In this document: piece after piece, positions 3,238-30,245 of the stretch
Position numbering within the stretch: the first letter of the stretch is position 1
Layout: each line of letters opens with the position of its first letter
Origin: a virus
Taxonomy: Duplodnaviria > Heunggongvirae > Uroviricota > Caudoviricetes
IMG/VR virus record: IMGVR_UViG_2671180294_000014
Strand: one strand, 5' to 3'
Length of the DNA stretch: 33,339 nt
Translations under genes and position numbers: made by a program
Notes under the pieces: model-generated
Database searches by the model: none
Told to the model about the DNA's origin: nothing
What the model saw: only the letters and a program-made list of their open reading frames with translations

Positions 3238-3509
3238 GTATTCGTATTGAAATTGGCGAACGTTATGTCGTTACCAGTGACAGCTTCCAGTTTATTCTCC
3301 ACGAGAAAAAGAGAGCGGAAAGCGGTAAAAACGCCGGTCAGGAATGGCTGGCGGTGGTTGGTTATTACCCGAAATTAAGCCAGCTCGTTTCCGGCCTGAT
3401 GCATCACGATATTCTGACCGGAAGCGCAAAGTCTTTTGCTGATTTAAACGCGCAGGTTGAGCAACTCAGCAAGCGTTGTTCAGAGGCTTTTGGCTCATAT
3501 GGCCGTTAA
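3234..3509 (+). CDS. hypothetical early protein (P2 orf83 position)
   Basis: 91-aa ORF; ATG overlaps the upstream stop; 3' end overlaps the start of A. Confidence 0.55.
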   Translation: MSIRIEIGERYVVTSDSFQFILHEKKRAESGKNAGQEWLAVVGYYPKLSQLVSGLMHHDILTGSAKSFADLNAQVEQLSKRCSEAFGSYGR

Positions 3510-5796
3510 AGCCTCCGGGCGTTTTGTCCCTCCGTCAGCATTTGCTGCAGGCACCGGTAAGGCGTTTACCGGTGCTTATGCATGGAACGCGCCACGCGAG
3601 GCTGTCGGGCGCGAAAGACCCCTTACACGTGACGAGATGCGTCAGGTGCAAGGTGTTTTATCCACGATTAACCGCCTGCCTTACTTTTTGCGCTCGCTGT
3701 TTACGTCACGCTATGACTACATCCGGCGCAATAAAAGCCCGGTGCACGGGTTTTATTTCCTCACATCCACTTTTCAGCGTCGTTTATGGCCGCGCATTGA
3801 GCGTGTGAATCAGCGCCATGAAATGAACACCGACGCGTCGATGCTGTTTCTGGCTGAGCGTGACCACTATGCGCGCCTGCCGGGAATGAATGACAAGGAG
3901 CTGAAAAAGTTTGCCGCCCGTATCTCATCGCAGCTTTTCATGATGTATGAGGAACTCAGCGATGCCTGGGTGGATGCGCATGGCGAAAAAGAATCGCTGT
4001 TTACGGATGAGGCGCAGGCTCACCTCTATGGTCATGTTGCTGGCGCTGCACGTGCTTTCAATATTTCCCCTCTCTACTGGAAAAAATACCGTAAAGGACA
4101 GATGACCACGAGGCAGGCATATTCTGCCATTGCCCGTCTGTTTAACGATGAGTGGTGGATTAGTCAGCTTAAAGGCCAGCGTATGCGCTGGCATGAGGCG
4201 TTACTGATTGCTGTCGGGGAGGTCAATAAAGACCGTTCTCCTTATGCCAGTAAACATGCCATTCGTGATGTGCGTGCACGCCGCCAGGCAAATCTGGAAT
4301 TTCTTAAATCGTGTGATCTCGAAAACAGGGAAACAGGCGAGCGCATCGACCTTATCAGTAAGGTGATGGGCAGTATTTCTAATCCTGAAATTCGCCGGAT
4401 GGAGCTGATGAACACCATTGCCGGTATTGAGCGTTACGCCGCCGCAGAAGGTGATGTGGGGATGTTTATCACGCTGACCGCGCCGTCAAAGTATCACCCG
4501 ACACGTCAGGTTGGAAAAGGCGAAAGTAAAACCGTCCAGCTAAATCACGGCTGGAACGATGAGGCATTTAATCCAAAGGATGCGCAGCGTTATCTCTGCC
4601 GTATCTGGAGCCTGATGCGCACGGCATTCAAGGATAATGATTTACAGGTCTACGGTTTGCGAGTCGTCGAGCCACACCACGACGGAACGCCGCACTGGCA
4701 TATGATGCTTTTTTGTAATCCACGCCAGCGTAACCAGATTATCGAAATCATGCGTCGCTACGCGCTCAAAGAGGATGGCGACGAAAGAGGAGCTGCGCGA
4801 AACCGTTTTCAGGCAAAACATCTTAATCGGGGCGGTGCTGCGGGGTATATCGCGAAATACATCTCAAAAAATATCGACGGCTATGCACTGGATGGGCAGC
4901 TCGATAACGATAGCGGCAGACCGCTGAAAGATACTGCCGCGGCTGTTACCGCATGGGCGTCAACGTGGCGCATTCCGCAATTTAAAACGGTTGGCCTGCC
5001 GACAATGGGGGCTTACCGTGAACTACGCAAATTGCCTCGCGGCGTCAGCATTGCTGATGAGTTTGACGAGCGCGTCGAGGCTGCACGCGCCGCCGCAGAC
5101 AGTGGTGATTTTGCGCTGTATATCAGCGCGCAGGGTGGGGCAAATGTCCCGCGCGATTGTCAGACTGTCAGGGTCGCCCGTAGTCCGTCGGATGAAGTTA
5201 ACGAGTACGAGGAAGAAGTCGAGAGAGTGGTCGGCATTTACGCGCCGCATCTCGGCGCGCGTCATATTCATATCACCAGAACGACGGACTGGCGCATTGT
5301 TCCGAAAGTGCCGGTCGTTGAGCCTTTGACTTTAAAAAGCGGCATCGCCGCGCCTCGGAGTCCTGTCAATAACTGTGGAAAGCTCACTGGTGGTGATACT
5401 TCGTTACCGGCTCCCACACCTTCTGAGCACGCCGCAGCAGTGCTTAATCTGGTAGATGACGGTGTTATCGAATGGAATGACCCGGAGGTTGTGAGGGCGC
5501 TCAGAGGTGCATTAAAACACGGACTGAGAAGACCAAACCGTCAGCAAAGAAACGGAAGCCCGTTAAAACCGCATGAAATAGCGCCATCGGCCAGACTGAC
5601 CCGGTCGGAACGAATGCAAATTACCCGTATCCGCGTTGACCTTGCTCAGAACGGTATCAGGCCGCAGCGATGGGAGCTTGAGGTGCTGGCGCGTGGGGCA
5701 ACCGTAAATTATGACGGGAAAAAATTCACTTACCCGCTCGCTGATGAGTGGTCGGGATTCTCAACAGTATTAGAGTCAAACTCAGTGAAGCGTTAA
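3499..5796 (+). CDS. A: replication initiation protein A (rolling-circle initiator)
   Basis: ORF 3457..5796; start set at ATG 3499 (MAVKASGRFVPP...), matching my recollection of P2 gpA over its whole length (765 aa here). Confidence 0.93.
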   Translation: MAVKASGRFVPPSAFAAGTGKAFTGAYAWNAPREAVGRERPLTRDEMRQVQGVLSTINRLPYFLRSLFTSRYDYIRRNKSPVHGFYFLTSTFQRRLWPRIERVNQRHEMNTDASMLFLAERDHYARLPGMNDKELKKFAARISSQLFMMYEELSDAWVDAHGEKESLFTDEAQAHLYGHVAGAARAFNISPLYWKKYRKGQMTTRQAYSAIARLFNDEWWISQLKGQRMRWHEALLIAVGEVNKDRSPYASKHAIRDVRARRQANLEFLKSCDLENRETGERIDLISKVMGSISNPEIRRMELMNTIAGIERYAAAEGDVGMFITLTAPSKYHPTRQVGKGESKTVQLNHGWNDEAFNPKDAQRYLCRIWSLMRTAFKDNDLQVYGLRVVEPHHDGTPHWHMMLFCNPRQRNQIIEIMRRYALKEDGDERGAARNRFQAKHLNRGGAAGYIAKYISKNIDGYALDGQLDNDSGRPLKDTAAAVTAWASTWRIPQFKTVGLPTMGAYRELRKLPRGVSIADEFDERVEAARAAADSGDFALYISAQGGANVPRDCQTVRVARSPSDEVNEYEEEVERVVGIYAPHLGARHIHITRTTDWRIVPKVPVVEPLTLKSGIAAPRSPVNNCGKLTGGDTSLPAPTPSEHAAAVLNLVDDGVIEWNDPEVVRALRGALKHGLRRPNRQQRNGSPLKPHEIAPSARLTRSERMQITRIRVDLAQNGIRPQRWELEVLARGATVNYDGKKFTYPLADEWSGFSTVLESNSVKR

Positions 5797-5882
5797 CTCA
5801 ATAAATATGAGTTTATAAGTTAGGCCTCGAGATTTTGTAGAAAGGGATGTATACTGAGTATCGTATAGATTTGGAGTGAGTG

Positions 5883-6905
5883 ATGACTGTAAAGGTGATA
5901 GACCTTTTTTGTGGTGCTGGCGGATTAACTCATGGTTTGCAGCTTGCGGGGCTTGATGTCGTTGCAGGCATTGACCTTGAGGGGGAATGTAGGTTTCCCT
6001 ATGAAAGAAACAATAAATCTAAGTTTATTGAGCAAGATATCGCTAAAGTAACAAAAGAGGAACTGCTGAGGCTTTATGGTGATGCGTCTGTAAAAGTATT
6101 GGCAGGATGCGCACCTTGCCAACCTTTTTCAAAATATACTCAAGGAAAAGATAAGGCTGATGATAAAAAATGGCCTCTTCTTTATGAGTTCGAACGTTTA
6201 ATTCGCGAAGTATCTCCAGAAATCGTAACAATGGAGAACGTTCCTGATGTAACTAAACATAAAGTTTATAATGATTTTTATAATTCATTGTTAAAGTTGG
6301 GCTATTATGTTTGGGCGTCTAAGATTGATTGTGTCGAATATGGAATCCCACAAAACCGTTCCCGTCATGTATTGTTGGCCTCAAAATTGGGGGCGATTGA
6401 GTTAGTAAAACGTGACGATGTTATTTTGAAAACAGTTAGAGATGCAATAGGAAATCTTCCTCCATTAGAAGATGGCCAAACAGATCCAAATGATATATTA
6501 CATAGAGCCAGTAAATTAAATCCGATTAATAAAAAAAGAATTATACACTCTGTTCCTGGTGGTACATGGAAGGACTGGCCGAAAGAGTTGGTTGCCGCTT
6601 GTCATATGAAATCCAGCGGTAAAGGGTATGCTAGTGTATATGGGCGCATGTCTTGGGATAAGCCAAGTCCAACAATTACAACTCTTTGTTATGGTTTCGG
6701 GAATGGGCGTTTTGGACATCCAGAACAGCATAGAGCGATTTCTCTTAGAGAGGCTGCTTTATTGCAAACTTTCCCGATGGATTATATTTTTGTAGAAGAC
6801 AAAAACAAGTTTGTTATAAGAAGTATTGGGAAAATGATAGGTAATGCTGTTCCTGTGGAACTAGGAAAAGCAATTGGGCAATCAATCAAGAACCATTTAG
6901 AATGA
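5883..6905 (+). CDS. DNA (cytosine-5)-methyltransferase, no recognisable cognate restriction endonuclease
   Basis: ORF 5880..6905; ATG 5883 with GGAG 6 nt upstream. Canonical C5-MTase motifs seen directly: I DLFCGAGG, IV PCQPFS (catalytic Cys), VI ENV, VIII QNRSRHV, X GNAVPV. AT-rich compared with the phage backbone. Confidence 0.9.
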   Translation: MTVKVIDLFCGAGGLTHGLQLAGLDVVAGIDLEGECRFPYERNNKSKFIEQDIAKVTKEELLRLYGDASVKVLAGCAPCQPFSKYTQGKDKADDKKWPLLYEFERLIREVSPEIVTMENVPDVTKHKVYNDFYNSLLKLGYYVWASKIDCVEYGIPQNRSRHVLLASKLGAIELVKRDDVILKTVRDAIGNLPPLEDGQTDPNDILHRASKLNPINKKRIIHSVPGGTWKDWPKELVAACHMKSSGKGYASVYGRMSWDKPSPTITTLCYGFGNGRFGHPEQHRAISLREAALLQTFPMDYIFVEDKNKFVIRSIGKMIGNAVPVELGKAIGQSIKNHLE

Positions 6906-6911
6906 TAAAAT

Positions 6912-6928
6912 GGCCTGCTTTACAGGCC
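6912..6928. terminator. bidirectional intrinsic terminator between convergent genes
   Basis: GGCCTG-cttta-CAGGCC hairpin flanked by an A-run on the left and a T-rich stretch on the right, between the MTase stop (6905) and the stop of the minus-strand gene (6935). Confidence 0.6.
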
Positions 6929-6934
6929 TTATAA

Positions 6935-7615
6935 CTATTGTTCTAAATATTCATTATTATTTATATAGTGCTCTATATTATTCACGATAGCATCAAGATA
7001 GGCGATTACTTCTAATGAAATATTCTCTAAGTCCTGATATGAAACATTTTTTCCAATCTCAGCAAATGATACATTGCCATGAGATAAATCATTACGATGT
7101 TGTTTAACAGTGGCTAATTTTTCACCATGTTTAGTGTGAGTGTAATCGGAATGTGTAGAAAAACCATATATTTTCGATTTTTCTTTGATTTCCTCTCTAT
7201 CAATATTTCCTGAGAATATTTTCTTTTTGTTGAACGTGCCATAAGATATACCGCAAGATATACCTTTGGTAAGGTGATTAACTAAACTTTCAACATTTAC
7301 AGATTCATTTTTTAATCTTTTTAATATTTCTGACCTGAGATTTTTCCTGAGTTTGTCAAATTCTACGTTTCTATCATAAATAGTCTCATGAATAAGGCAG
7401 ATAGCTTCTCTCATTGTTGATTCAATGAGGTTATATAACAGTATATATACTGCTCCCTTTAGAGTTTTTCGTGATTGAGCAGTAATGGAGAACTTATGTT
7501 CTTTATCATCAGCTGATATCAGTTCTGCACCGGCATACTCAATAAATTTCAAAAGATCCAAATAGGCCAAGATCTCTCCTGACCTTTCGTCAAAATCCTC
7601 ACGAAAACGATCCAT
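6935..7615 (-). CDS. hypothetical protein with HEPN-like Rx4H motif; downstream gene of the two-gene cargo operon
   Basis: 226-aa ORF. ATG at 7615 lies 1 nt after the upstream gene's TAA (TAAcATG); GAGGA RBS. C-terminal region has KQHRNDLSHGN, matching the HEPN Rx4-6H signature. Strongly AT-rich. Confidence 0.65.
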   Translation of the reverse strand: MDRFREDFDERSGEILAYLDLLKFIEYAGAELISADDKEHKFSITAQSRKTLKGAVYILLYNLIESTMREAICLIHETIYDRNVEFDKLRKNLRSEILKRLKNESVNVESLVNHLTKGISCGISYGTFNKKKIFSGNIDREEIKEKSKIYGFSTHSDYTHTKHGEKLATVKQHRNDLSHGNVSFAEIGKNVSYQDLENISLEVIAYLDAIVNNIEHYINNNEYLEQ

Positions 7616-7616
7616 G

Positions 7617-8759
7617 TTAATCCTCTAATAATTTATCCCGAACATATTCAATTCGTTCAATTACCTTCACGCGACTATTAGCTCCGTCGGAAGTGGTCAA
7701 TCGTTTGAATTCTTCTGAGCTTAGCCAATCTAAGTTCTTGGGAACAAGGTCAGGGACTTCACGTAATGCAAGTGCTGCGCCAACAGCGAGAGATTCGAAT
7801 CTAACTCGAGGTGTAGATTTTGCAGTAATAGTTTTCTTGAATCCTGCTGGGAAATAGTTTTCAACAAAAGATAGAACATTAGCAAACTCTTGTTTCATTG
7901 AGTTTTGTTTAGTTTCGTCTATATCTCGATTTTCTGACATATAGTCATTTAGAAAATCCCGTACGGAATGATCAAAGTTCTTGTACTTATCTACGTAGGC
8001 AAAGAATCTTAATGTAAATTCTAACCGTTCATCTCGTTTTTCTTTAGTCTGAGATAAAGGTGCTAATTCTTTAAATTTAGGTATTGTTGAGCATGGCTTA
8101 ATAACCTGTGTATATAAATTTGTTGAACCAAGTTCTGATCCTTTACGGACTTCCATATCTTTCAATATATCGCTGCCAGAGTTAATACGCTCAAAAAGAT
8201 CTCTACGGGTTTCTTCATTGCATTTAGAACTCAATTCTATAACGCGGACAGGAATTCTCATGAAACGACGTTGACGTGATAATGGTAAATCTTGGAATTT
8301 GAAACCATTAAGGACGTCTAAAGATTTCAGGTCTTGTAAAACTAATTCATTTTGGATAAAAGCGTGTATAGTCCTAACTCGTTGTGAGCCATCAACAATC
8401 TCAATTCGCCCATCTAAATCGGGATCTTCGGAGAGAACATCTGCTATAAATATATATGGTATAGGAAAACCCAAAATCAAAGACTCTATCAATTTTGATT
8501 GTCTTTTTTCACTCCAAACAAAATCCCTTTGATAATCAGGAACAAAGAGTTCGTTAGTATCATCCTCTAATCCGTTATGATACTTATTAACTAATAACTC
8601 AACGGTAAATTCTTTGGTCTCAAAATCCACATCCTTTTGCTCAGCACGAATTTGCTCTTCAGCGTTTTGCTTTATCACCTCTAGCTGAGCAAGCAACTCT
8701 GCTCTTTTCTTGGCATTATCTTCATTTTCTAGTTGAGATTTTAAATCAATAATGTCCAT
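7617..8759 (-). CDS. DUF262 (ParB/Srx-like, GmrS-type) domain protein; upstream gene of the two-gene cargo operon
   Basis: ORF 7617..8777 (TTG start); ATG at 8759 preferred (AAGGGAA 6 nt upstream). Shows DUF262 hallmark motifs: PDYQRDFVW and IEIVDGSQR (DGQQR-type). N-terminal coiled-coil-like segment. No HNH/DUF1524 motifs found in the C-terminal half. Confidence 0.7.
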   Translation of the reverse strand: MDIIDLKSQLENEDNAKKRAELLAQLEVIKQNAEEQIRAEQKDVDFETKEFTVELLVNKYHNGLEDDTNELFVPDYQRDFVWSEKRQSKLIESLILGFPIPYIFIADVLSEDPDLDGRIEIVDGSQRVRTIHAFIQNELVLQDLKSLDVLNGFKFQDLPLSRQRRFMRIPVRVIELSSKCNEETRRDLFERINSGSDILKDMEVRKGSELGSTNLYTQVIKPCSTIPKFKELAPLSQTKEKRDERLEFTLRFFAYVDKYKNFDHSVRDFLNDYMSENRDIDETKQNSMKQEFANVLSFVENYFPAGFKKTITAKSTPRVRFESLAVGAALALREVPDLVPKNLDWLSSEEFKRLTTSDGANSRVKVIERIEYVRDKLLED

Positions 8760-20802: not shown

Positions 20803-23121
20803 ATGAGCACAAAATTCAGAACCGTTATCACCACTGCCGGTGCAGCAAAGCTGGCAGCGGCAACCGCACCGGGAGGGCGGAAGGTCAACATTACCACGAT
20901 GGCCGTCGGGGATGGCGGTGGTAAATTGCCTGTCCCGGATGCCGGACAGACCGGGCTTATCCACGAAGTCTGGCGACATACGCTGAACAAAATCAGCCAG
21001 GACAAACGAAACAGTAATTATATTATCGCAGAGCTGGTTATTCCGCCGGAGGTGGGCGGTTTCTGGATGCGTGAGCTTGGCCTGTACGATGATGCGGGAA
21101 CGTTAATTGCCGTGGCGAACATGGCCGAAAGTTATAAGCCAGCTCTTGCCGAAGGCTCAGGGCGTTCGCAGACCTGTCGCATGGTCATCATCGTCAGCAG
21201 TGTGGCCTCGGTGGAGCTGACCATTGACACCACAACGGTGATGGCGACACAGGATTACGTTGATGACAAAATTGCAGAGCACGAACAGTCACGACGTCAC
21301 CCGGACGCCTCGCTGACCGCAAAAGGTTTTACTCAGTTAAGCAGTGCGACCAACAGCACGTCTGAAACACTGGCCGCAACGCCGAAAGCGGTAAAGGCCG
21401 CCTATGACCTTGCTAACGGGAAATATACCGCACAGGACGCTACCACAGCTCGAAAAGGTCTTGTCCAGCTCAGTAGTGCCACCAACAGCACGTCTGAAAC
21501 GCTTGCGGCAACGCCAAAGGCGGTTAAGACAGCGTATGACCTTGCTAACGGGAAATACACTGCACAGGACGCCACTACAGCGCGAAAAGGTCTTGTCCAG
21601 CTCAGTAGCGCCACCAACAGCGATTCTGAAACGCTTGCGGCAACACCAAAGGCGGTTAAGACAGCGTATGACCTTGCTAACGGGAAATACACTGCACAGG
21701 ATGCCACCACAGCGCGAAAAGGTCTTGTCCAGCTAAGTAGTGCCATCAACAGCGATTCTGAAACGCTGGCCGCAACGCCAAAAGCAGTGAAGTCTGCCTA
21801 TGACAATGCTGAAAAACGTCTTCAGAAAGATCAGAACGGTGCGGATATTCCGGGAAAGGATACCTTCACGAAAAATATCGGTGCCTGTCGTGCTTATAGC
21901 GGCGCTTTGAGCACTGAAGCCGGAAACTGGACAACCGCTCAGTTTATTGAATGGCTGGATTCCCGTGGTGCATTTAATCATCCGTACTGGATGTGCAAAG
22001 GCTCCTGGTCATATGCAAATAACAAAATCATTACGGATACCGGATGTGGTGATATCCACCTGGCTGGTTGTGTCGTCGAGGTCATGGGAACTAAATCTGC
22101 AATCACTATCCGAGTGACCACGCCAACAACATCAAGCGGTGGCGGTACAACCAGCGCGCAATTCACTTACATAAATCATGGGGACGGCTACTCCCCCGGC
22201 TGGCGTCGTGACTGGAATCGTCAGGGCGACTCAATGACCGGAACGATTAATCAGGATGGCGGAAGCCAGAATGCCTATATGTCTACGGCCTTATGTTCAG
22301 GCACCAGAGGCGGCAAAAAATATCTCAGAAAGTTTCGTGGTGGAGAAGGAGATACTATCTGGCATGAAACAGTTCAGGGCGGGGTAATTCGCTGGGCGAC
22401 AGGAAACAATGACGCTCAGGAAGAATTATCACTCAGCTCCGCTTATGGTCTCCGTTCAAGAGGTGAAATTACATCACTCAGTGCTAATGGTCTGCGCATT
22501 GCTTATGGCAATTATGGATTCTTTATCAGGAATGATGGCGGCAGCACATATTTAATGCTGACGGCCTCTGGCGATAAATTTGGGACATGGAACGGCTTAA
22601 GACCGCTGACTATCAATAACGCCAATGGCGGAGTGTCAATGGGGCATGGCCTGAGTGTTACAGGTGATATTGTCTCAAGTACCAAAGTACGTGCCGGTAG
22701 CGGGAAAAAGTTCACGGTCAGCAGCAGCAATACATCCACGAAGGAAGCCGCATTCAATTTGTGGGGAAACTCAAGTCGTCCTGTGGTGGCTGAATTAGGT
22801 GATGATGCAGGCTGGCATTTTTACAGTCAGAGAAATACAGATAACAGCATCACTTTTGCTGTTAACGGGCAGGTATCACCATCTAACTATGGCAACTTTG
22901 ATTCACGCTATGTCCGGGATATCCGGCTTGGTGGTGCTGCCACATACAAACCTGCGAACAATGGTATGACATGGACACATCAGGCACCGTCCGGGTGTGT
23001 ATATTCCGGCATTATTGTTCAGGATACCGGCTCAAACTCTGCCGATAACATTGGTGGCGTATATTACAGACCGGTGCAGAAATACATTAACGGGACTTGG
23101 TATAACGTGGCACAGGTATAA
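20803..23121 (+). CDS. H: tail fibre protein H with expanded internal tandem repeats
   Basis: 772 aa. The N-terminal ~170 aa follow the conserved tail-fibre pattern; then repeats of ...LSSATNSTSETLAATPKAVK.AYDLANGKYTAQDATTARKGLVQ...; the C-terminal part is lower in GC and likely the receptor-binding region. Confidence 0.9.
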   Translation: MSTKFRTVITTAGAAKLAAATAPGGRKVNITTMAVGDGGGKLPVPDAGQTGLIHEVWRHTLNKISQDKRNSNYIIAELVIPPEVGGFWMRELGLYDDAGTLIAVANMAESYKPALAEGSGRSQTCRMVIIVSSVASVELTIDTTTVMATQDYVDDKIAEHEQSRRHPDASLTAKGFTQLSSATNSTSETLAATPKAVKAAYDLANGKYTAQDATTARKGLVQLSSATNSTSETLAATPKAVKTAYDLANGKYTAQDATTARKGLVQLSSATNSDSETLAATPKAVKTAYDLANGKYTAQDATTARKGLVQLSSAINSDSETLAATPKAVKSAYDNAEKRLQKDQNGADIPGKDTFTKNIGACRAYSGALSTEAGNWTTAQFIEWLDSRGAFNHPYWMCKGSWSYANNKIITDTGCGDIHLAGCVVEVMGTKSAITIRVTTPTTSSGGGTTSAQFTYINHGDGYSPGWRRDWNRQGDSMTGTINQDGGSQNAYMSTALCSGTRGGKKYLRKFRGGEGDTIWHETVQGGVIRWATGNNDAQEELSLSSAYGLRSRGEITSLSANGLRIAYGNYGFFIRNDGGSTYLMLTASGDKFGTWNGLRPLTINNANGGVSMGHGLSVTGDIVSSTKVRAGSGKKFTVSSSNTSTKEAAFNLWGNSSRPVVAELGDDAGWHFYSQRNTDNSITFAVNGQVSPSNYGNFDSRYVRDIRLGGAATYKPANNGMTWTHQAPSGCVYSGIIVQDTGSNSADNIGGVYYRPVQKYINGTWYNVAQV
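21325..21805 (+). repeat. about 3.6 tandem copies of a 132-bp (44-codon) in-frame repeat inside H
   Basis: The string caacagc(a/g)(c/a)(g/t)tctgaaac recurs at 21351, 21483, 21615 and 21747, exactly 132 bp apart; the translated units are near-identical. Confidence 0.9.
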
Positions 23122-23124
23122 TTT

Positions 23125-23652
23125 ATGCAGCATTTGATAAATATAACGGCAGGTAATCCAAAAACGGTTGAACAATATCAATTGACAAAGGACTTTGATG
23201 TTGTCTGGTTTTTTTCAGAAGATGGTAAGAACTGGTACGAAGAACAAAAGTATTTTGCTGATGACACGATAAAAATAGCGTACGACAAAGATAATATTAT
23301 CCGCTATGTGGAAAAGGATGTGACAGCTATCAGACCGGATGGATTAAGTGTTGTTGAAGTGCCGGATATTACTGCTAACCGACGGGCGGACATTTCAGGG
23401 AACTGGATGTTTAAGGACTGTACAGTGATTAAACGAATTTATACGGCAGAGGAATTGCAGCAGCAGGCAGAAAATCGGAAAGCCAGACTTCTTGCAGATG
23501 CTGAATCCGTGATTTTGCCGCTGGAGCGCGCTGTCAGGCTGAATATGGCAACAGATGAGGAGCGCAGTCGACTGGAGGCATGGGAACGCTACAGTGTTCT
23601 GGTCAGTCGTGTGGATCCTGCAAATCCTGAATGGCCGGAAATGCCGCAATAA
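23125..23652 (+). CDS. G: tail fibre assembly protein (chaperone)
   Basis: 175 aa directly after H; position and size match P2 gpG. Confidence 0.85.
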
Positions 23653-23766
23653 GTTGTATGAGCTCTGGTGTGAGCTTACATATCTATGGCACAGAGTAAA
23701 GCCTAATCTGAGAGTCCGCTCTGTGCCAGAAGTAGACGCACAAGGTGGGCGTGTCTTTTTCTTAAG

Positions 23767-25185
23767 CTACATCGGGCTCTTATATGGGGAATGAGAGTTT
23801 TTGAAACGCGGTTCTTCATGCTTCGGACTGTAAATTCTTGCATGATTATCTATCACAACTTTACTTCCAAGAATATCTCGAGCTTCTCCTAACGACCACA
23901 CAGTAGAAAGATCATTAGTCAAATTTCGATAGAGAGCACGAAACCCCTTGGGTTTTTTAAGATCATATAAGAAATCAGGAACTTTAACTTTAAAATTAAA
24001 GGTCGGTAGTTTCGGAAGGGAATTAATAGCCGCAACAGTATTGTATACATGTACAAGCTTAGTTACAGGTACACCTTGTCTAGTCTTGAGCCCATACTTA
24101 GTTCGAATATAATCTGATTCTTTCGATACTTCAGTAAGCAATGCTCTTACTGACTTATTAGCTTGAGGCAATTCATTTTCATCAAACAAGCGCTTTATTT
24201 CTCGCATTTTCTCACGGGCCCTTACAAATTCGTTGTTGTCCCTTATGTTATAAGCAGCTTCAACAATACAACTTGGATCACCAGTTTCTTTTGCGAGCCA
24301 TGCCGAAAATAAAGGAAGCGAAGTTGCTGTTGCTACAGCTTTACCACCAGAATGAATATCAATGAGATCATGACTTAACGAAGTGGAAAAGTTTTCTACA
24401 ATATGTTTAGCATAGTCAAAACCATACTGACAGTTTTGGCTTAAATATGTCTGTTGATACGCCTGACGTAATGGATATAAAAAAGTATCTGCTTGAAGGT
24501 ACTTAGCTGTGAGAGAATAAAATACTGCCCGATTAGCCAGCCATACAAGCGAAGCCACGAATGCTTTGATTGCATCTGATGCTTCACCAGCAGATGTGCC
24601 ATCCCCCCATTTTGCTCCGGGAACTTTGTACCCCTTGCGAATAGGGTTGCCAAATCGATCGAGAAGTTCAACATCGCCATTTGTTCTATTACCAGACTCA
24701 GCAGCATCACGCAGTTCTGAAAAAATGGCAGCAGCAATGTTACCATATTTTTCAAACTCCTTACCTCCATCAGATAAGTTCTTCAGTGTTAGATGATAAA
24801 CACTTGAACTAATGTCCCATGTACATATGATATGTGTCTGAAGAAGTTCAATTAGTTTTTTAAAATCGTCATTAACAAATGTTCCACCACGAATTTTAGG
24901 TTTCAATGCATCAGATATTTTTTTTGCTTCACTTTCAATTTCATCCAACCCATATTGTGCTTTATCAAGAAATAATATCTCTCTGAAACTTGAAATCCTA
25001 CTCCCACGGTACTCTGGAATATAATCATCAACCGCGATAACGTGATCATAGAACAAAATAGACTGTATATAGTTCTCAAATGCTATTATGTCTGTATCTA
25101 CTGAGTCCTTCGATCTTGTTTTTACTTTCCCCTCGATTCTTTGGACTGCAGTTAGAGTTGAATTATCAATCAGTGCGTATGTCAT
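23767..25185 (-). CDS. hypothetical 472-aa protein, AT-rich cargo at the P2 Z/fun position
   Basis: Long clean ORF on the strand opposite to the flanking late genes. ATG at 25185 with AAGGA RBS. Markedly AT-rich. No Walker, HNH, PD-(D/E)xK or MTase motifs recognised; the only weak feature is a C-terminal RIYSPKH (Rx5H). Confidence 0.7.
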   Translation of the reverse strand: MTYALIDNSTLTAVQRIEGKVKTRSKDSVDTDIIAFENYIQSILFYDHVIAVDDYIPEYRGSRISSFREILFLDKAQYGLDEIESEAKKISDALKPKIRGGTFVNDDFKKLIELLQTHIICTWDISSSVYHLTLKNLSDGGKEFEKYGNIAAAIFSELRDAAESGNRTNGDVELLDRFGNPIRKGYKVPGAKWGDGTSAGEASDAIKAFVASLVWLANRAVFYSLTAKYLQADTFLYPLRQAYQQTYLSQNCQYGFDYAKHIVENFSTSLSHDLIDIHSGGKAVATATSLPLFSAWLAKETGDPSCIVEAAYNIRDNNEFVRAREKMREIKRLFDENELPQANKSVRALLTEVSKESDYIRTKYGLKTRQGVPVTKLVHVYNTVAAINSLPKLPTFNFKVKVPDFLYDLKKPKGFRALYRNLTNDLSTVWSLGEARDILGSKVVIDNHARIYSPKHEEPRFKNSHSPYKSPM

Positions 25186-25454
25186 TTACATTCCTTAAAT
25201 AAAAAACATTAATGGTTGCTCCAAAAATACTAGCAACCTTATTTCAGTGAAGTCAATTTTTTAACATTAATCATTTACACACGCTTGAAAAGTGATCGCT
25301 GAAAATGGCATTTACTACATTATCAAAGTTCCCATCGAAGATAATCGAAATTTTTCCCGGTAGCAGATATCGTGAGATTTAACGCTTTTCGCTCATAGCA
25401 GGCTGTCAGATTTGATAGCGTTTGGGCTATGTAAACTGTCAGTCGGAAAATGAG

Positions 25455-25472
25455 TGTGTACAAATCAGGACA
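25455..25472 (+). promoter_or_regulatory. candidate Ogr-dependent late promoter element (TGT-N12-ACA) upstream of FI
   Basis: TGTgtacaaatcaggACA about 125 bp upstream of the FI start, fitting the dyad of P2 late-promoter activator sites; followed by the palindrome GCGGGCGAATTGCCCGC (25474-25490). Confidence 0.5.
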
Positions 25473-25595
25473 TGCGGGCGAATTGCCCGCATTTTCTTTA
25501 TCTGTTGTTTCATCCACTGACCAGCCAGGTCAAATAGCGTCTCATGCACTGCCCAACAGAAAATAGTTGCACCCATTAACCACGGAGTTAAACGG

Positions 25596-26786
25596 ATGAG
25601 TGACTATCATCACGGCGTGCAGGTGCTGGAGATTAACGACGGCACCCGCGTCATTTCCACCGTATCCACTGCCATTGTCGGCATGGTCTGCACGGCCAGC
25701 GATGCGGATGCGGAAACCTTCCCCCTCAATAAACCGGTGCTGATTACCAATGTGCAGAGCGCAATTGCAAAGGCCGGTAAAAAAGGCACGCTGGCGGCAT
25801 CGTTGCAGGCCATCGCCGACCAGTCAAAACCGGTCACCGTTGTCGTGCGTGTGGAAGACGGCACCGGCGACGACGAGGAAACGAAACTCGCGCAGACCGT
25901 TTCCAATATCATCGGCACCACCGACGAAAACGGTCAGTACACCGGACTGAAAGCCCTGCTGGCGGCGGAGTCGGTAACCGGTGTTAAACCGCGTATTCTC
26001 GGCGTGCCGGGACTGGACACCAAAGAGGTGGCTGTTGCACTGGCATCAGTCTGTCAGAAGCTGCGCGCTTTCGGGTATATCAGCGCATGGGGCTGTAAGA
26101 CCGTTTCCGAGGTGAAAGCCTACCGTCAGAATTTCAGCCAGCGTGAGCTGATGGTCATCTGGCCGGATTTCCTCGCATGGGATACGGTCGCCAGTACCAC
26201 CGCCACCGCGTATGCCACCGCCCGTGCGCTGGGTCTGCGCGCTAAAATCGACCAGGAGCAGGGCTGGCATAAAACGCTGTCCAACGTCGGGGTGAACGGT
26301 GTTACCGGCATCAGCGCGTCCGTATTCTGGGATTTGCAGGAGTCCGGCACCGATGCTGACCTGCTTAACGAGTCAGGCGTCACAACGCTGATTCGCCGTG
26401 ACGGTTTCCGCTTCTGGGGTAACCGTACCTGCTCTGATGACCCGCTGTTCCTCTTTGAAAACTACACCCGCACCGCGCAGGTGCTGGCCGACACGATGGC
26501 TGAGGCGCACATGTGGGCGGTGGACAAGCCCATCACCGCAACGCTGATTCGCGACATCGTTGACGGCATCAATGCCAAATTCCGTGAGCTGAAAACAAAC
26601 GGCTATATCGTGGATGCGACCTGCTGGTTCAGCGAAGAATCCAACGATGCGGAAACCCTCAAGGCCGGAAAACTGTATATCGACTACGACTATACCCCGG
26701 TGCCTCCTCTTGAAAACCTGACCCTGCGCCAGCGTATTACCGATAAATACCTGGCAAATCTGGTCACCTCGGTTAACAGCAATTAA
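25596..26786 (+). CDS. FI: contractile tail sheath protein
   Basis: 396 aa (MSDYHHGVQVLEINDGTRVI...), matches recalled P2 gpFI. Confidence 0.93.
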   Translation: MSDYHHGVQVLEINDGTRVISTVSTAIVGMVCTASDADAETFPLNKPVLITNVQSAIAKAGKKGTLAASLQAIADQSKPVTVVVRVEDGTGDDEETKLAQTVSNIIGTTDENGQYTGLKALLAAESVTGVKPRILGVPGLDTKEVAVALASVCQKLRAFGYISAWGCKTVSEVKAYRQNFSQRELMVIWPDFLAWDTVASTTATAYATARALGLRAKIDQEQGWHKTLSNVGVNGVTGISASVFWDLQESGTDADLLNESGVTTLIRRDGFRFWGNRTCSDDPLFLFENYTRTAQVLADTMAEAHMWAVDKPITATLIRDIVDGINAKFRELKTNGYIVDATCWFSEESNDAETLKAGKLYIDYDYTPVPPLENLTLRQRITDKYLANLVTSVNSN

Positions 26787-27373: not shown

Positions 27374-27649
27374 ATGAACAAAGAAAATGTGATTACCCTG
27401 GACAATCCGGTCAAGCGTGGTGAGCAGGTTATCGAACAGGTCACGCTGATGAAACCCAGTGCGGGGACGCTGCGCGGTGTCAGTCTGGCTGCGGTCGCAA
27501 ACTCAGAAGTCGATGCACTGATTAAGGTGCTGCCGCGCATGACGGCACCGATGCTGACCGAGCAGGAAGTCGCCGCGCTGGAACTGCCTGACCTTGTGGC
27601 GCTGGCCGGTAAGGTGGTCGGTTTTTTGTCGCCGAACTCGGTGCAGTGA
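27374..27649 (+). CDS. E: tail assembly chaperone E
   Basis: 91 aa; precedes the tape-measure gene; slippery TTTTTTG near its 3' end. Confidence 0.85.
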   Translation: MNKENVITLDNPVKRGEQVIEQVTLMKPSAGTLRGVSLAAVANSEVDALIKVLPRMTAPMLTEQEVAALELPDLVALAGKVVGFLSPNSVQ

Positions 27650-27801
27650 CGCTTCCGAAAAATCTGTCGGTCGATGACCTGATGGCGGATGTGGCAGTGA
27701 TATTTCACTGGCCGCCATCAGAACTGTATCCCATGAGCCTGACCGAACTCATCACATGGCGCGAAAAGGCGCTCAGGCGAAGCGGAAACACGAATGAGTA
27801 A
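27374..27801 (+). CDS. E': E+E' tail chaperone made by programmed -1 frameshift
   Basis: Slippery heptamer TTTTTTG at 27622-27628. The -1 frame stays open from there to TAA at 27799-27801, which overlaps the T start. Same arrangement as P2 E/E' and lambda G/GT. Confidence 0.7.
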
Positions 27802-30245
27802 CAATGTAAAATTACAGGTATTGCTCAGGGCTGTTGACCAGGCGTCCCGCCCGTTTAAATCCATCCGCAGAGCGAGTAAGTTGCTGTCGGGGGATATCCG
27901 GGAAACACAAAAATCACTGCGCGAGCTGAACGGTCACGCATCCCGTATTGAGGGATTCCGCAAGACCAGTGCACAGCTCGCCGTGACTGGTCATGCACTT
28001 GAAAAGGCACGGCAGGAGGCCGAAGCCCTTGCCACACAGTTTAAAAACACCGAACGCCCGACCCGTGCTCAGGCGAAAGTGCTGGAATCCGCAAAGCGTG
28101 CGGCGGAGGACTTACAGGCGAAATATAACCGCCTGACAGATTCCGTTAAACGCCAGCAGCGGGAACTGGCCGCTGTGGGAATTAATACCCGCAATCTTGC
28201 ACATGATGAGCAGGGACTGAAAAACCGTATCAGTGAAACCACCGCCCAGCTTAACCGGCAGCGTGACGCGCTGGCGCGTGTCAGTGCGCAACAGGCAAAA
28301 CTTAACGCAGTCAAACAGCGTTATCAGGCCGGAAAGGAACTGGCCGGAAATATGGCCTCAGTGGGCGCTGCCGGTGTGGGGATTGCTGCTGCGGGAACGA
28401 TAGCCGGAGTTAAGCTGCTGATGCCAGGTTATGAGTTTGCGCAGAAAAACTCAGAATTGCAGGCTGTGCTCGGTGTGGCAAAAGACTCCGCCGAAATGGC
28501 TGCACTCCGCAAGCAGGCGCGCCAGCTCGGTGACAACACCGCCGCCTCAGCGGATGATGCGGCCGGTGCACAGATTATCATTGCGAAAGCGGGTGGGGAT
28601 GTTGATGCCATTCAGGCGGCAACGCCGGTCACGCTGAATATGGCGCTGGCGAACCGCCGCACAATGGAAGAAAACGCCGCCCTGCTGATGGGGATGAAAT
28701 CCGCCTTTCAGCTTTCAAACGATAAGGTCGCTCATATCGGGGATGTTCTCTCCATGACGATGAACAAAACCGCCGCTGATTTTGACGGCATGAGCGATGC
28801 GCTGACCTATGCCGCACCAGTGGCAAAAAATGCCGGTGTCAGCATTGAAGAAACCGCCGCAATGGTCGGGGCGCTGCATGATGCAAAAATCACAGGCTCA
28901 ATGGCGGGGACGGGAAGCCGTGCCGTGTTAAGTCGCCTGCAGGCACCGACTGGAAAAGCATGGGATGCACTCAAAGAGCTTGGCGTGAAAACCTCAGACA
29001 GTAAGGGAAACACCCGACCAGTATTTACCATTCTGAAAGAAATGCAGGCCAGCTTTGAGAAAAACCGGCTCGGTACTGCCCAGCAGGCCGAATACATGAA
29101 AACCATTTTCGGGGAGGAGGCCAGCTCAGCCGCCGCTGTGCTGATGACTGCCGCGTCAACCGGAAAGCTGGACAAACTGACCGCTGCGTTTAAAGCCTCA
29201 GACGGGAAGACCGCAGAGCTGGTAAATATCATGCAGGACAACCTCGGCGGTGACTTTAAGGAGTTTCAGTCCGCTTATGAGGCGGTGGGGACAGACCTGT
29301 TTGACCAGCAGGAAGGCGCGCTACGTAAGCTCACGCAGACGGCCACAAAGTATGTGTTAAAACTCGACGGCTGGGTACAGAAAAACAAATCACTGGCGTC
29401 AACCATTGGCCTCATTGCCGGTGGCGCGCTGGCGCTGACTGGCATCATCGGTGCAATTGGTCTTGTAGCCTGGCCGGTTATCACCGGCATCAATGCCATC
29501 ATCGCGGCAGCAGGCGCAATGGGGGCAATCTTCACGACGGTTGGTAGTGCCGTTATGACGGCCATCGGGGCGATTAGCTGGCCGGTTGTGGCTGGGGGGG
29601 NNNNNNNNNNNNNTCGCCGGGGCGTTGCTTATCCGTAAATACTGGGAGCCTGTCAGCGCATTCTTTGGCGGTGTGGTTGAAGGGCTGAAAGCGGCATTTG
29701 CGCCGGTGGGGGAGCTGTTCACGCCACTGAAACCGGTGTTTGACTGGCTGGGCGAAAAGTTACAGGCTGCGTGGCAGTGGTTTAAAAACCTGATTGCCCC
29801 GGTCAAAGCCACCCAGGACACCCTGAACCGTTGCCGTGACACGGGCGTCATGTTCGGGCAGGCACTGGCTGACGCGCTGATGCTGCCGCTTAATGCGTTC
29901 AACAAATTGCGCAGCGGCATTGACTGGGTACTGGAAAAGCTCGGGGTCATCAACAAAGAGTCAGACACACTTGACCAGACCGCCGCCAGAACTCATGCCG
30001 CCACGTATGGCACCGGTGGTTATATTCCGGCGACCAGCTCTTATGCAGGCTATCAGGCTTATCAGCCGGTCACGGCACCGGCTGGCCGCTCTTATGTGGA
30101 CCAGAGTAAAAACGAATATCACATCAGCCTGACGGGTGGTACTGCACCGGGGACACAGCTTGACCGCCAGTTACAGGATGCGCTCGAAAAATACGAGCGG
30201 GATAAACGTGCGCGCGCCCGTGCCAGCATGATGCATGACGGTTAA
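27794..30245 (+). CDS. T: tail tape measure protein, interrupted by an assembly gap
   Basis: ORFs 27794..29638 and 29586..30245 together equal P2 gpT in length (about 815 aa). A run of 13 N at 29601-29613 breaks the frame. Ala/Gly-rich with hydrophobic segments. Confidence 0.88.
29601..29613. other. assembly gap (13 N) after a poly-G tract
   Basis: Literal n characters in the sequence, preceded by GGGGGGG. Confidence 0.99.

What the first reader, a model, noticed from the sequence alone, without database searches (positions are those of the whole stretch)
23767..25185. Unrecognised 472-aa protein occupying the P2 Z/fun hotspot
Seen in sequence: a single long minus-strand ORF with good RBS, strongly AT-rich, inserted between G and FI, opposite in orientation to the late genes. 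I recognise no catalytic motif; the only weak feature is RIYSPKH near the C-terminus (Rx5H, HEPN-like but unconvincing). Established knowledge: in P2 this position holds Z/fun, which blocks phage T5, and is a recognised defence-cargo hotspot. Inference: a single-gene anti-phage or abortive-infection protein of unknown mechanism.
Basis: partly seen in the sequence, partly recalled or inferred. Interest (0 to 1): 0.8.

Follow-up and report, generated by a model that had tools for sequence, protein, structure and literature searches.

The report
Uncharacterised PIN-like defence candidate in P2 hotspot
A P2-like E. coli prophage carries, at its known anti-phage cargo site, a highly conserved 472-residue protein that no database names; it probably has a nuclease-like head and a novel regulatory body, and is a strong, directly testable candidate for a new single-gene phage-defence system.

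Summary
A 472-aa minus-strand ORF (23767-25185) sits in a ~1.65-kb low-GC cassette (about 23733-25382) between tail-fibre-assembly gene G and tail-sheath gene FI. P2 carries fun(Z) at this position.

The protein (WP_000220361.1, "hypothetical") has no Pfam, NCBIfam or PADLOC match and no similarity to Fun(Z). The "RIYSPKH" HEPN hint is not conserved and is rejected.

The family is small and rare, with a fixed length and no domain fusions, and it is scattered across more than ten phyla. It is almost always a solo gene. It lies in prophage moron sites, ICEs and defence islands, for example next to Hachiman, Wadjet-like, OLD-like and type IV restriction genes.

In a Bacteroidota sub-clade the gene is always translationally coupled to a dedicated minimal GGDEF cyclase. 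This hints at nucleotide control.

Best reading (about 45%): a new single-gene abortive-infection/defence effector. It has a PIN-like nuclease domain gated by a novel sensor domain. No experiment has tested this.

The parts
23767..25185 (-). CDS of the 472-aa protein (WP_000220361.1), stop codon included
24766..25185 (-). [not shown]
23770..24765 (-). C-terminal ~330 residues: a helical region plus a small beta-sheet with no solved structural counterpart. Invariant P238, R240, P291 and R324; conserved extreme C-terminal tail ...K-x-P-M.
25227..25256 (-). sigma-70-like promoter site of the cassette (TTGACT, 18 nt, TG-n-TAGTAT)
   Evidence: lies inside the region that is not homologous to P2
25191..25196 (-). 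Shine-Dalgarno-like AAGGAA, 5 nt before the ATG
   Evidence: read directly from the sequence
25214..25238 (-). 7-bp inverted repeat GGTTGCT-N11-AGCAACC overlapping the -10 element. It is not conserved in the Pantoea or Serratia cassettes.
   Evidence: dG -9.5 kcal/mol, z -2.3
23733..25382 (.). Cargo cassette: the stretch with no homology to P2 or Wphi. It holds the gene, its own ~197-bp upstream region and ~35 bp downstream.
   Evidence: blastn breakpoints at 23732/23733 and 25383/25389; low GC
23734..23765 (+). Weak terminator-like hairpin plus U-run on the + strand just after G. It lies at the position where P2 has its V-operon terminator abutting the 3' end of fun(Z).
   Evidence: fold not better than shuffles; P2 annotation; weak
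25472..25492 (+). Terminator-like hairpin (9 bp, 6 GC, T-run) in the conserved P2 backbone between the cassette and the pF promoter region. It would stop + strand read-through across the cargo.
23125..23652 (+). Left flank: gene G, tail-fibre assembly protein
25596..26786 (+). Right flank: gene FI, tail sheath protein

Best explanation
[not shown]
Confidence: 0.45

Rival explanations
1. It is a defence or conflict protein, but the N-terminal alpha/beta domain is not a nuclease. Instead it binds or processes a nucleotide, for example as a phosphatase, nucleotidase or ligand-binding Rossmann-like module, and the effector activity lies elsewhere or is of a new type.
Confidence: 0.2
2. It is a fused toxin-antitoxin-like addiction or stabilisation module of mobile elements. 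A PIN-like toxin is held in check by its own C-terminal part, and the benefit is element maintenance rather than phage defence.
For: VapC-like fold. The gene occurs in prophages, ICEs and IS-rich regions, and next to CcdAB and ParE modules. It is a solo gene with no antitoxin gene.
Against: A single polypeptide cannot give post-segregational killing by differential stability without a labile partner. Several copies lie between housekeeping genes with no mobile element nearby. Placement in validated defence hotspots and next to Hachiman, Wadjet and restriction genes fits defence better.
Confidence: 0.12
3. It is a non-defence moron. Possibilities are a lysogenic-conversion factor acting on host physiology, a regulator, or a counter-defence or inter-element competition factor used by the prophage itself.
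For: About a quarter of P2 hotspot cargo in Rousset 2022 is not defence, for example partition systems and toxins. No defence HMM matches. The gene sits opposite to the late genes and has its own promoter, so it is expressed from the lysogen, as any conversion gene would be.
Against: The family is found in more than ten phyla with very different physiology, and often outside prophages. Its neighbourhoods are enriched in defence genes relative to an in-locus control.
Confidence: 0.1

Closest known systems
VapC / PIN-domain ribonuclease toxins (type II toxin-antitoxin systems; Pfam PF01850 clan)
   Different: No sequence or profile match to any PIN model and no Foldseek support. No antitoxin gene is present. 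The protein is 472 aa with ~330 extra residues. The third and fourth PIN acids are only partly conserved, while the family-specific residues D32, D53/D54, R16 and R63 are better conserved.
P2 Fun(Z) (NP_046777.1)
   Same: Same locus between G and FI, same minus-strand orientation, similar size (528 aa against 472 aa). Both are non-essential lysogen-expressed cargo. Fun(Z) blocks T5 when cloned.
   Different: No detectable sequence similarity (best BLASTP E 0.12 in a one-to-one comparison). It is a different cassette with different boundaries.
Other cargo of the P2 fun hotspot and PADLOC systems (PD-T4, PD-T7 and PD-Lambda systems of Vassallo 2022; PDC candidates)
   Same: Same hotspot concept: three of the Vassallo systems map to this locus. 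Single-gene, prophage-borne and annotated as hypothetical.
   Different: No match to any of 5027 PADLOC v2.0.0 models at E<=1. The accession is absent from the Vassallo 2022 and DefensePredictor supplementary files that are held as text.
Single-chain 'fused toxin-antitoxin' sensors such as CapRel(SJ46) (from my own knowledge: Zhang et al., Nature 2022)
   Same: The same proposed logic. A prophage-encoded single polypeptide has an N-terminal toxin-type enzymatic domain held inactive by its own C-terminal domain, which doubles as the phage sensor.
   Different: No homology. The enzymatic domain here is PIN-like rather than toxSAS. Autoinhibition and sensing are pure inference for this protein.
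Cyclase-plus-effector immune systems (CBASS, Pycsar, type III CRISPR; the mCpol-based Panoptes system, from my own knowledge)
   Same: In the Bacteroidota sub-clade, a minimal palm-domain nucleotide cyclase gene with intact catalytic motifs overlaps the start of the family gene. This is the classic signal-maker plus effector operon layout.

Membership tests
PIN-domain superfamily (VapC-like) | Three-layer alpha/beta/alpha fold with a central parallel sheet, structurally superimposable on solved PIN domains | tested here: met
   [not shown]
PIN-domain superfamily (VapC-like) | Four conserved acidic residues forming the Mg/Mn site (VapC D7, E42, D98, E119) | tested here: inconclusive
   Acid 1 (D7) is invariant and acid 2 (E37) is always D/E. 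The candidate acid 3 (positions 105-107) is acidic in 29-41 of 67 divergent members per column. The candidate acid 4 (D124) is acidic in 47/67.
PIN-domain superfamily (VapC-like) | Sequence or profile similarity to PIN families | tested here: not met
   No Pfam hit for the protein at E<=1. No PIN-clan family appears among the families listed for 51 diverse members (the top 25 of 37 are shown). No PIN chain appears in a PDB profile search at E<=10. hhalign against a VapC profile gives probability 0.7% (the profile was shallow, Neff 2.1).
VapBC type II toxin-antitoxin module | Adjacent, co-transcribed small antitoxin gene | tested here: not met
   The cassette holds one gene. No recurrent neighbour is found in 47 loci.
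HEPN ribonucleases | Conserved R-x(4-6)-H catalytic motif in an all-helical domain | tested here: not met
   [not shown]
Fun(Z) of phage P2 | Sequence homology to NP_046777.1 | tested here: not met
   BLASTP best E 0.12 over 20 residues.
Any system in PADLOC-DB v2.0.0 (2023) | Match to a system HMM | tested here: not met
   0 families at E<=1. DefenseFinder and post-2023 models could not be run.
Cyclic-nucleotide signalling defence (cyclase plus effector) | A nucleotide cyclase gene in the same operon | tested here: not met
   None is present in the window cassette or in most loci. The feature is met only in a Bacteroidota sub-clade, where a mini-GGDEF is present in 8 of 8 sampled loci.
Cyclic-nucleotide signalling defence (cyclase plus effector) | Effector carries a known nucleotide-sensor domain (SAVED, CARF, STING, cNMP-binding) | tested here: not met
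   [not shown]
Anti-phage defence system (functional class) | Reduces phage plaquing or propagation when expressed | not testable with these tools
   Only contextual evidence is available.

The most novel reading that the evidence does not exclude
The family is the effector of a previously unrecognised nucleotide-controlled immune pathway. On this reading its ~330-residue C-terminal domain is a new class of nucleotide sensor that gates a PIN-like nuclease. Bacteroidota, which largely lack c-di-GMP signalling, supply the ligand with a dedicated minimal GGDEF cyclase. The solo versions in E. coli and other Proteobacteria would read the host's own GGDEF-derived nucleotide pool, or its depletion by phage sponges or nucleases, in a 'guard' logic like Panoptes.
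Probability: 0.15. Interest if true: 0.9.

Novelty: new variant of a known kind. Interest (0 to 1): 0.66.

Why it matters
The P2 fun(Z) locus is a validated but barely explored defence hotspot, and this cassette is a clean, 1.65-kb, single-gene test case with its own promoter. If it protects against phage, it would add a new defence family. That family is absent from Pfam and from the 2023 PADLOC library and is found in more than ten bacterial phyla. Two-thirds of the protein would be structurally new. The effector type (PIN-like) is common in toxin-antitoxin systems but rarely seen as a stand-alone sensor-effector. The dedicated mini-GGDEF partner in Bacteroidota would link GGDEF-type cyclases, the classic c-di-GMP enzymes, to immune signalling. 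This link is directly testable by identifying the product and measuring binding. The unusually strict conservation (fixed length, invariant termini, no domain swapping) is itself unexplained for a gene expected to be in an arms race.

Tried and rejected
1. HEPN reading of RIYSPKH: rejected because the R and H are not conserved.
2. Homology to Fun(Z): none.
3. Pfam, NCBIfam and PADLOC on the protein, and Pfam on 51 diverse members: nothing consistent. PHROG 13435 matches but has unknown function.
4. PDB sequence-profile search: only coiled-coil noise.
5. hhalign of the N-domain against a VapC profile built: negative, but that profile was shallow because only hits at 73% identity or more were listed.
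6. Foldseek against the PDB: no significant hit. The afdb50 library was unavailable.
7. Search for a conserved partner gene across 47 loci: none, apart from the Bacteroidota mini-GGDEF.
8. Conserved 5' UTR or hairpin: the upstream 200 nt is shared only among Enterobacterales cassettes, and the inverted repeat over the -10 is not conserved.
9. Does the mini-GGDEF pair with other effectors, which would prove an 'effector' role by swapping? No. All eight sampled loci have the same family downstream.
10. Literature and supplement searches for WP_000220361, DP2564, Tel_01525 and phrog_13435: nothing relevant.
11. tblastn against 50,697 phage records: no match.
12. The search for related loci with the deep alignment failed for lack of conserved patterns and was repeated with the closer alignment.

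Full report
**1. The observation**

The window is a complete P2-like prophage:
- integrase at 1-1011
- replication protein A at 3457-5796
- portal at 9131-10165
- tail fibre H, tail-fibre assembly G, sheath FI, tube FII, E/E', tape measure and the remaining late genes

The ORF at 23767-25185 (minus strand, ATG, 472 aa) exists exactly as described. At the local base composition the probability of 472 stop-free codons is about 9e-16.

AAGGAA lies 5 nt before the ATG. A sigma-70-like site with an extended -10 lies at 25256-25227. GC falls to 0.37-0.39 here, against 0.54-0.60 in the late genes. RefSeq annotates the product as hypothetical protein WP_000220361.1, between 'tail fiber assembly protein' and 'phage tail sheath protein'.

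**2. The locus**

The P2 reference genome has the following at the same place: G (+), a V-operon terminator, fun(Z) on the minus strand ('cloned gene blocks growth of T5; lysogenic conversion'), the pF activator site, and FI. Phage Wphi and a P2 isolate carry a different 299-aa gene there.

blastn against P2 and Wphi places the homology breakpoints at 23732/23733 and at 25383-25389. The cargo is therefore a ~1.65-kb cassette that brings its own ~197-bp upstream region. Vassallo et al. 2022 state that this fun locus is a second defence-enriched locus of P2-like phages and held three of their new systems (PMC9519451).

**3. What the protein is not**

- It has no Pfam, NCBIfam or PADLOC (v2.0.0) match at E<=1.
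- Its only family match is PHROG 13435, of unknown function.
- It has no PDB relative by sequence profile.
- It has no similarity to Fun(Z).
- In the 'RIYSPKH' string, R450 is kept in 3 of 51 diverse members and H456 is mostly T/V/I. The HEPN idea is rejected.
- No paper or held supplement mentions the accession.
- No record among 50,697 phage genomes encodes it.

**4. The family**

A word-indexed search found 282 proteins. The 120 best are 51-100% identical and almost all are exactly 472-474 aa. They come from E. coli, Pantoea, Serratia, Pectobacterium, Acinetobacter, Halomonas, Vibrio, Psychrobacter, Desulfotalea, Citrifermentans and Tenderia.

An exhaustive profile search of 1.84 billion representatives found only 327 proteins. 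All have the same architecture (full-length members 455-485 aa) and none has an added domain. A scan of one genome per species found 45 species. These span Gamma- and Betaproteobacteria, Nitrospira, Cyanobacteria, Verrucomicrobia, Chloroflexi, Firmicutes, Bacteroidota, Leptospirales and Armatimonadota. This count is a pattern-limited lower bound. Seven of 5426 complete E. coli genomes carry the gene.

The family is thus rare, patchy and horizontally spread, yet unusually rigid.

In a 51-sequence alignment reaching down to 21% identity, the conserved positions are:
- invariant: D7, R16, G19, D32, W123, L132, P238, R240, P291, R324
- nearly invariant: N8, E37, D53, D54, Y55, R63, F67, G101, S128, W215, Y223, G433, and the very last residues (K469, P471, M472)

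**5. Genomic company**

The gene is a solo gene. Among ORFs within 3 kb in 47 loci, no neighbour family occurs in more than four loci. The contexts seen are:
- the P2 hotspot: three IMG/VR contigs have identical flanks
- one 2.26-kb low-GC cassette, 95% identical, in two different lambdoid-type backbones, next to Ren-like/DinI-like/HNH genes or methyltransferase/NinB genes
- downstream of a phage replicative helicase, or next to a serine integrase
- an integrative element with an OLD-like ATPase-Toprim gene, a relaxase and an integrase
- cargo within an ICE transfer region
- a Pectobacterium island with a HEPN-Toprim protein 120 nt upstream, CcdAB, and MComp1/SMC
- beside MksBEF
- beside an SRA-HNH enzyme
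- a variable island near gyrB in about a dozen Pseudomonas species, with Hachiman (Cap4-nuclease HamA plus DEAD helicase), a 1321-aa DUF4365-TPR protein, PIN_8 proteins and SEC-C proteins
- a few plain insertions between housekeeping genes

I ran a rough controlled test. It compared 146 ORFs within 3 kb with 150 ORFs lying 6-10 kb away in the same loci. Both sets were scanned against PADLOC at E<=1e-10.
- The near set gave strong hits to HamA (8e-273), PDC-S06, a type IV methyl-directed REase, JukB, NsnA/PD-T4-2_A, PDC-S35, RmrA, mad3 (4 proteins) and AriA (2 proteins).
- The far set gave what looks like a single cytosine methyltransferase hit by many redundant models, plus one AbiTii and one mad3.

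The tables are truncated at 25 families, so this result is qualitative. It agrees with the individual contexts.

**6. Structure**

With a shallow alignment the AlphaFold model was mediocre (pLDDT 66). With the deep alignment it was good (pLDDT 80.8, pTM 0.84).

Residues 1-137 form a beta-alpha domain. Residues 142-364 are mostly long helices. A small sheet is assembled from 285-291, 374-382, 415-420 and 444-450, and the conserved C-terminal tail (strand 469-471, pLDDT about 90) is predicted to be ordered rather than floppy.

The caveats are real:
- Foldseek against all PDB chains found nothing significant (best E 0.026, TM 0.12).
- No PIN HMM matches.
- hhalign against a VapC profile built from a verified Shigella VapC gave probability 0.7%. 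That profile was shallow.

Guided by secondary structure, I map D7 to VapC D7 and E37 to VapC E42. Both are 100% acidic even among 67 members below 50% identity. I map the 105-107 segment to D98, and T122-W123-D124 to the 'T-x-D/N' motif near E119. These last two are acidic in only about 45-70% of divergent members. The family-specific residues D32, D53/D54, R16 and R63 are better conserved.

I therefore call the domain PIN-like in fold, with a partly non-canonical site. I do not file it as a PIN family member.

**7. An unexpected two-gene variant**

In two Bacteroidota genomes a 120-121-aa ORF overlaps the start of the family gene. It is a truncated GGDEF-type cyclase domain, with E 1.5e-7 to solved diguanylate cyclases. 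It retains the DxD metal site and a (G/D)(S/G/T)DEF version of GGDEF.

Seventeen such stand-alone mini-GGDEF proteins exist in the 5.8-billion-protein set. In them D9, D11, N17, G25-N26, D51-E52, F55, S84, K111 and G114-K115 are invariant, so the catalytic core looks intact.

In all eight loci I could examine, the next, overlapping gene is a family member, 33-50% identical to the E. coli protein (L053, L054, L063, L064, L076-L079). The partner is therefore dedicated to this family, and I saw it with no other effector.

This is the strongest mechanistic hint for the non-PIN part of the protein. At least in that clade, the system includes a nucleotide-making enzyme. The E. coli cassette has none.

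**8. Most likely mechanism**

Taking the evidence together, I think the cassette encodes a lysogen-expressed, single-protein defence of the abortive-infection type. A PIN-like nuclease domain is gated by a large novel C-terminal domain, and nucleic-acid (probably RNA) cleavage follows activation.

| Category | Items |
|---|---|
| Inferred | defence phenotype, nuclease activity, gating, substrate, nature of the trigger |

I put about 0.45 on the whole statement. Taken separately, I put about 0.7 on 'conflict/defence function', about 0.45-0.5 on 'PIN-type nuclease effector', and about 0.2-0.25 on 'nucleotide-regulated'.

The rivals are:
- a defence protein whose N-domain binds or processes nucleotides rather than cutting nucleic acid (0.2)
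- a mobile-element addiction module (0.12)
- a non-defence moron or counter-defence factor (0.1)

**9. Comparison with known systems and novelty**

The protein works most like a VapC-type toxin fused to its own regulator, the logic of CapRel-type fused toxin-antitoxin sensors. It occupies the same niche as Fun(Z) and the PD-T4/PD-Lambda cargo of this hotspot. It is not a member of any of these families by sequence. Each defining feature is listed in the membership table.

The family is absent from Pfam, from NCBIfam, from PADLOC 2023 and from the literature I could search. Two-thirds of it has no structural precedent. I rate it a new variant of a known kind: prophage-borne single-gene nuclease-type defence.

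There is a minority reading (about 15%) that it is the effector of a new GGDEF-linked nucleotide immune pathway. That would be considerably more interesting.

**10. Verdict**

The finding is real and uncharacterised, and it is well placed for a decisive, simple experiment. Interest is 0.66. A new hypothetical gene in a P2 hotspot is expected rather than shocking. The points that raise it above the ordinary are the rigid pan-phylum conservation, the novel fold, the PIN-like head and the dedicated mini-GGDEF partner.

Noticed in passing
window 5880-8777: The other P2 hotspot, between replication gene A and the portal, is also loaded. It holds a C5 cytosine DNA methyltransferase (5880-6905, +), a HEPN_MAE_28990/RiboL-PSP HEPN protein (6935-7615, -) and a GmrSD_N/DUF262 protein matching PADLOC NsnA and PD-T4-2_A (7617-8777, -). 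GC is 0.31-0.42. It is probably a PD-T4-2/Menshen-like two-gene system plus a methylase.
   Followed up: partly
L053:9633-9998, L054:2797-3159, L064:204-566, L078:48-449, and also L063, L076, L077, L079: A family of stand-alone 118-137-aa minimal GGDEF-type cyclases. Catalytic motifs are invariant and the first ~35 residues of the canonical domain are missing. In 8 of 8 loci the gene is immediately followed by, and overlaps, a homologue of the window protein. This is a Bacteroidota-centred two-gene variant.
   Followed up: yes
L070:5656-7912 and L071:5658-7912: The same ~2.26-kb low-GC cassette (95% identical) lies in two different lambdoid-type phage backbones. It carries the family gene (90% identical to the window's) plus a downstream DinI-like 114-120-aa ORF. 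This shows that the gene moves as a moron between phage types.
   Followed up: partly
L038-L048 and L056 (Pseudomonas spp.): About a dozen Pseudomonas species carry a ~36%-identical homologue in a variable island close to gyrB. The flanking genes vary: Hachiman, a 1321-aa DUF4365-TPR protein with a weak PIN-TPR-GreABC hit, 650-aa PIN_8 proteins, or 719-aa SEC-C-motif proteins. This looks like a Pseudomonas defence hotspot.
   Followed up: partly
window 21343-21804: A 132-bp tandem repeat, 3.5 copies at 89% match, inside tail-fibre gene H. It encodes repeated '...SSATNS.SETLAATPKAVK.AYDLANGKYTAQDATTARKGLVQL' units.
   Followed up: no
window 29601-29613: A run of 13 N inside the tape-measure gene breaks the ORF call at 27794-29638. 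It is a masked or unresolved stretch, not biology.
   Followed up: no
window 25472-25492 (+): A strong terminator-like hairpin (ATGCGGGCGAATTGCCCGCAT plus a T-run) lies in the conserved P2 backbone just upstream of the pF activator region. It would insulate the F operon from + strand read-through across the cargo, which is antisense to the cargo gene.
   Followed up: partly
homologue starts, e.g. L001:8001, L002:8001, L004:8001, L012:8001, L013:8001: Many homologues start with TTG or GTG instead of ATG, in the conserved context 'AA(A/G)TTGAC(N)TA(C/T)G'. Gene callers sometimes extend them upstream, as with the 495- and 503-aa versions in Desulfotalea and Citrifermentans.
   Followed up: no
window 27374-27801: Two overlapping ORFs (27374-27649 and 27646-27801) match the P2 E / E+E' arrangement, which in P2 is expressed by a -1 frameshift.
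   Followed up: no
L053:11455-12111: The 218-aa ORF just downstream of the Cryomorphaceae gene pair contains 'LRNRAAHGD', a typical HEPN R-x4-H motif. This suggests that this locus is a small defence island too.
   Followed up: no
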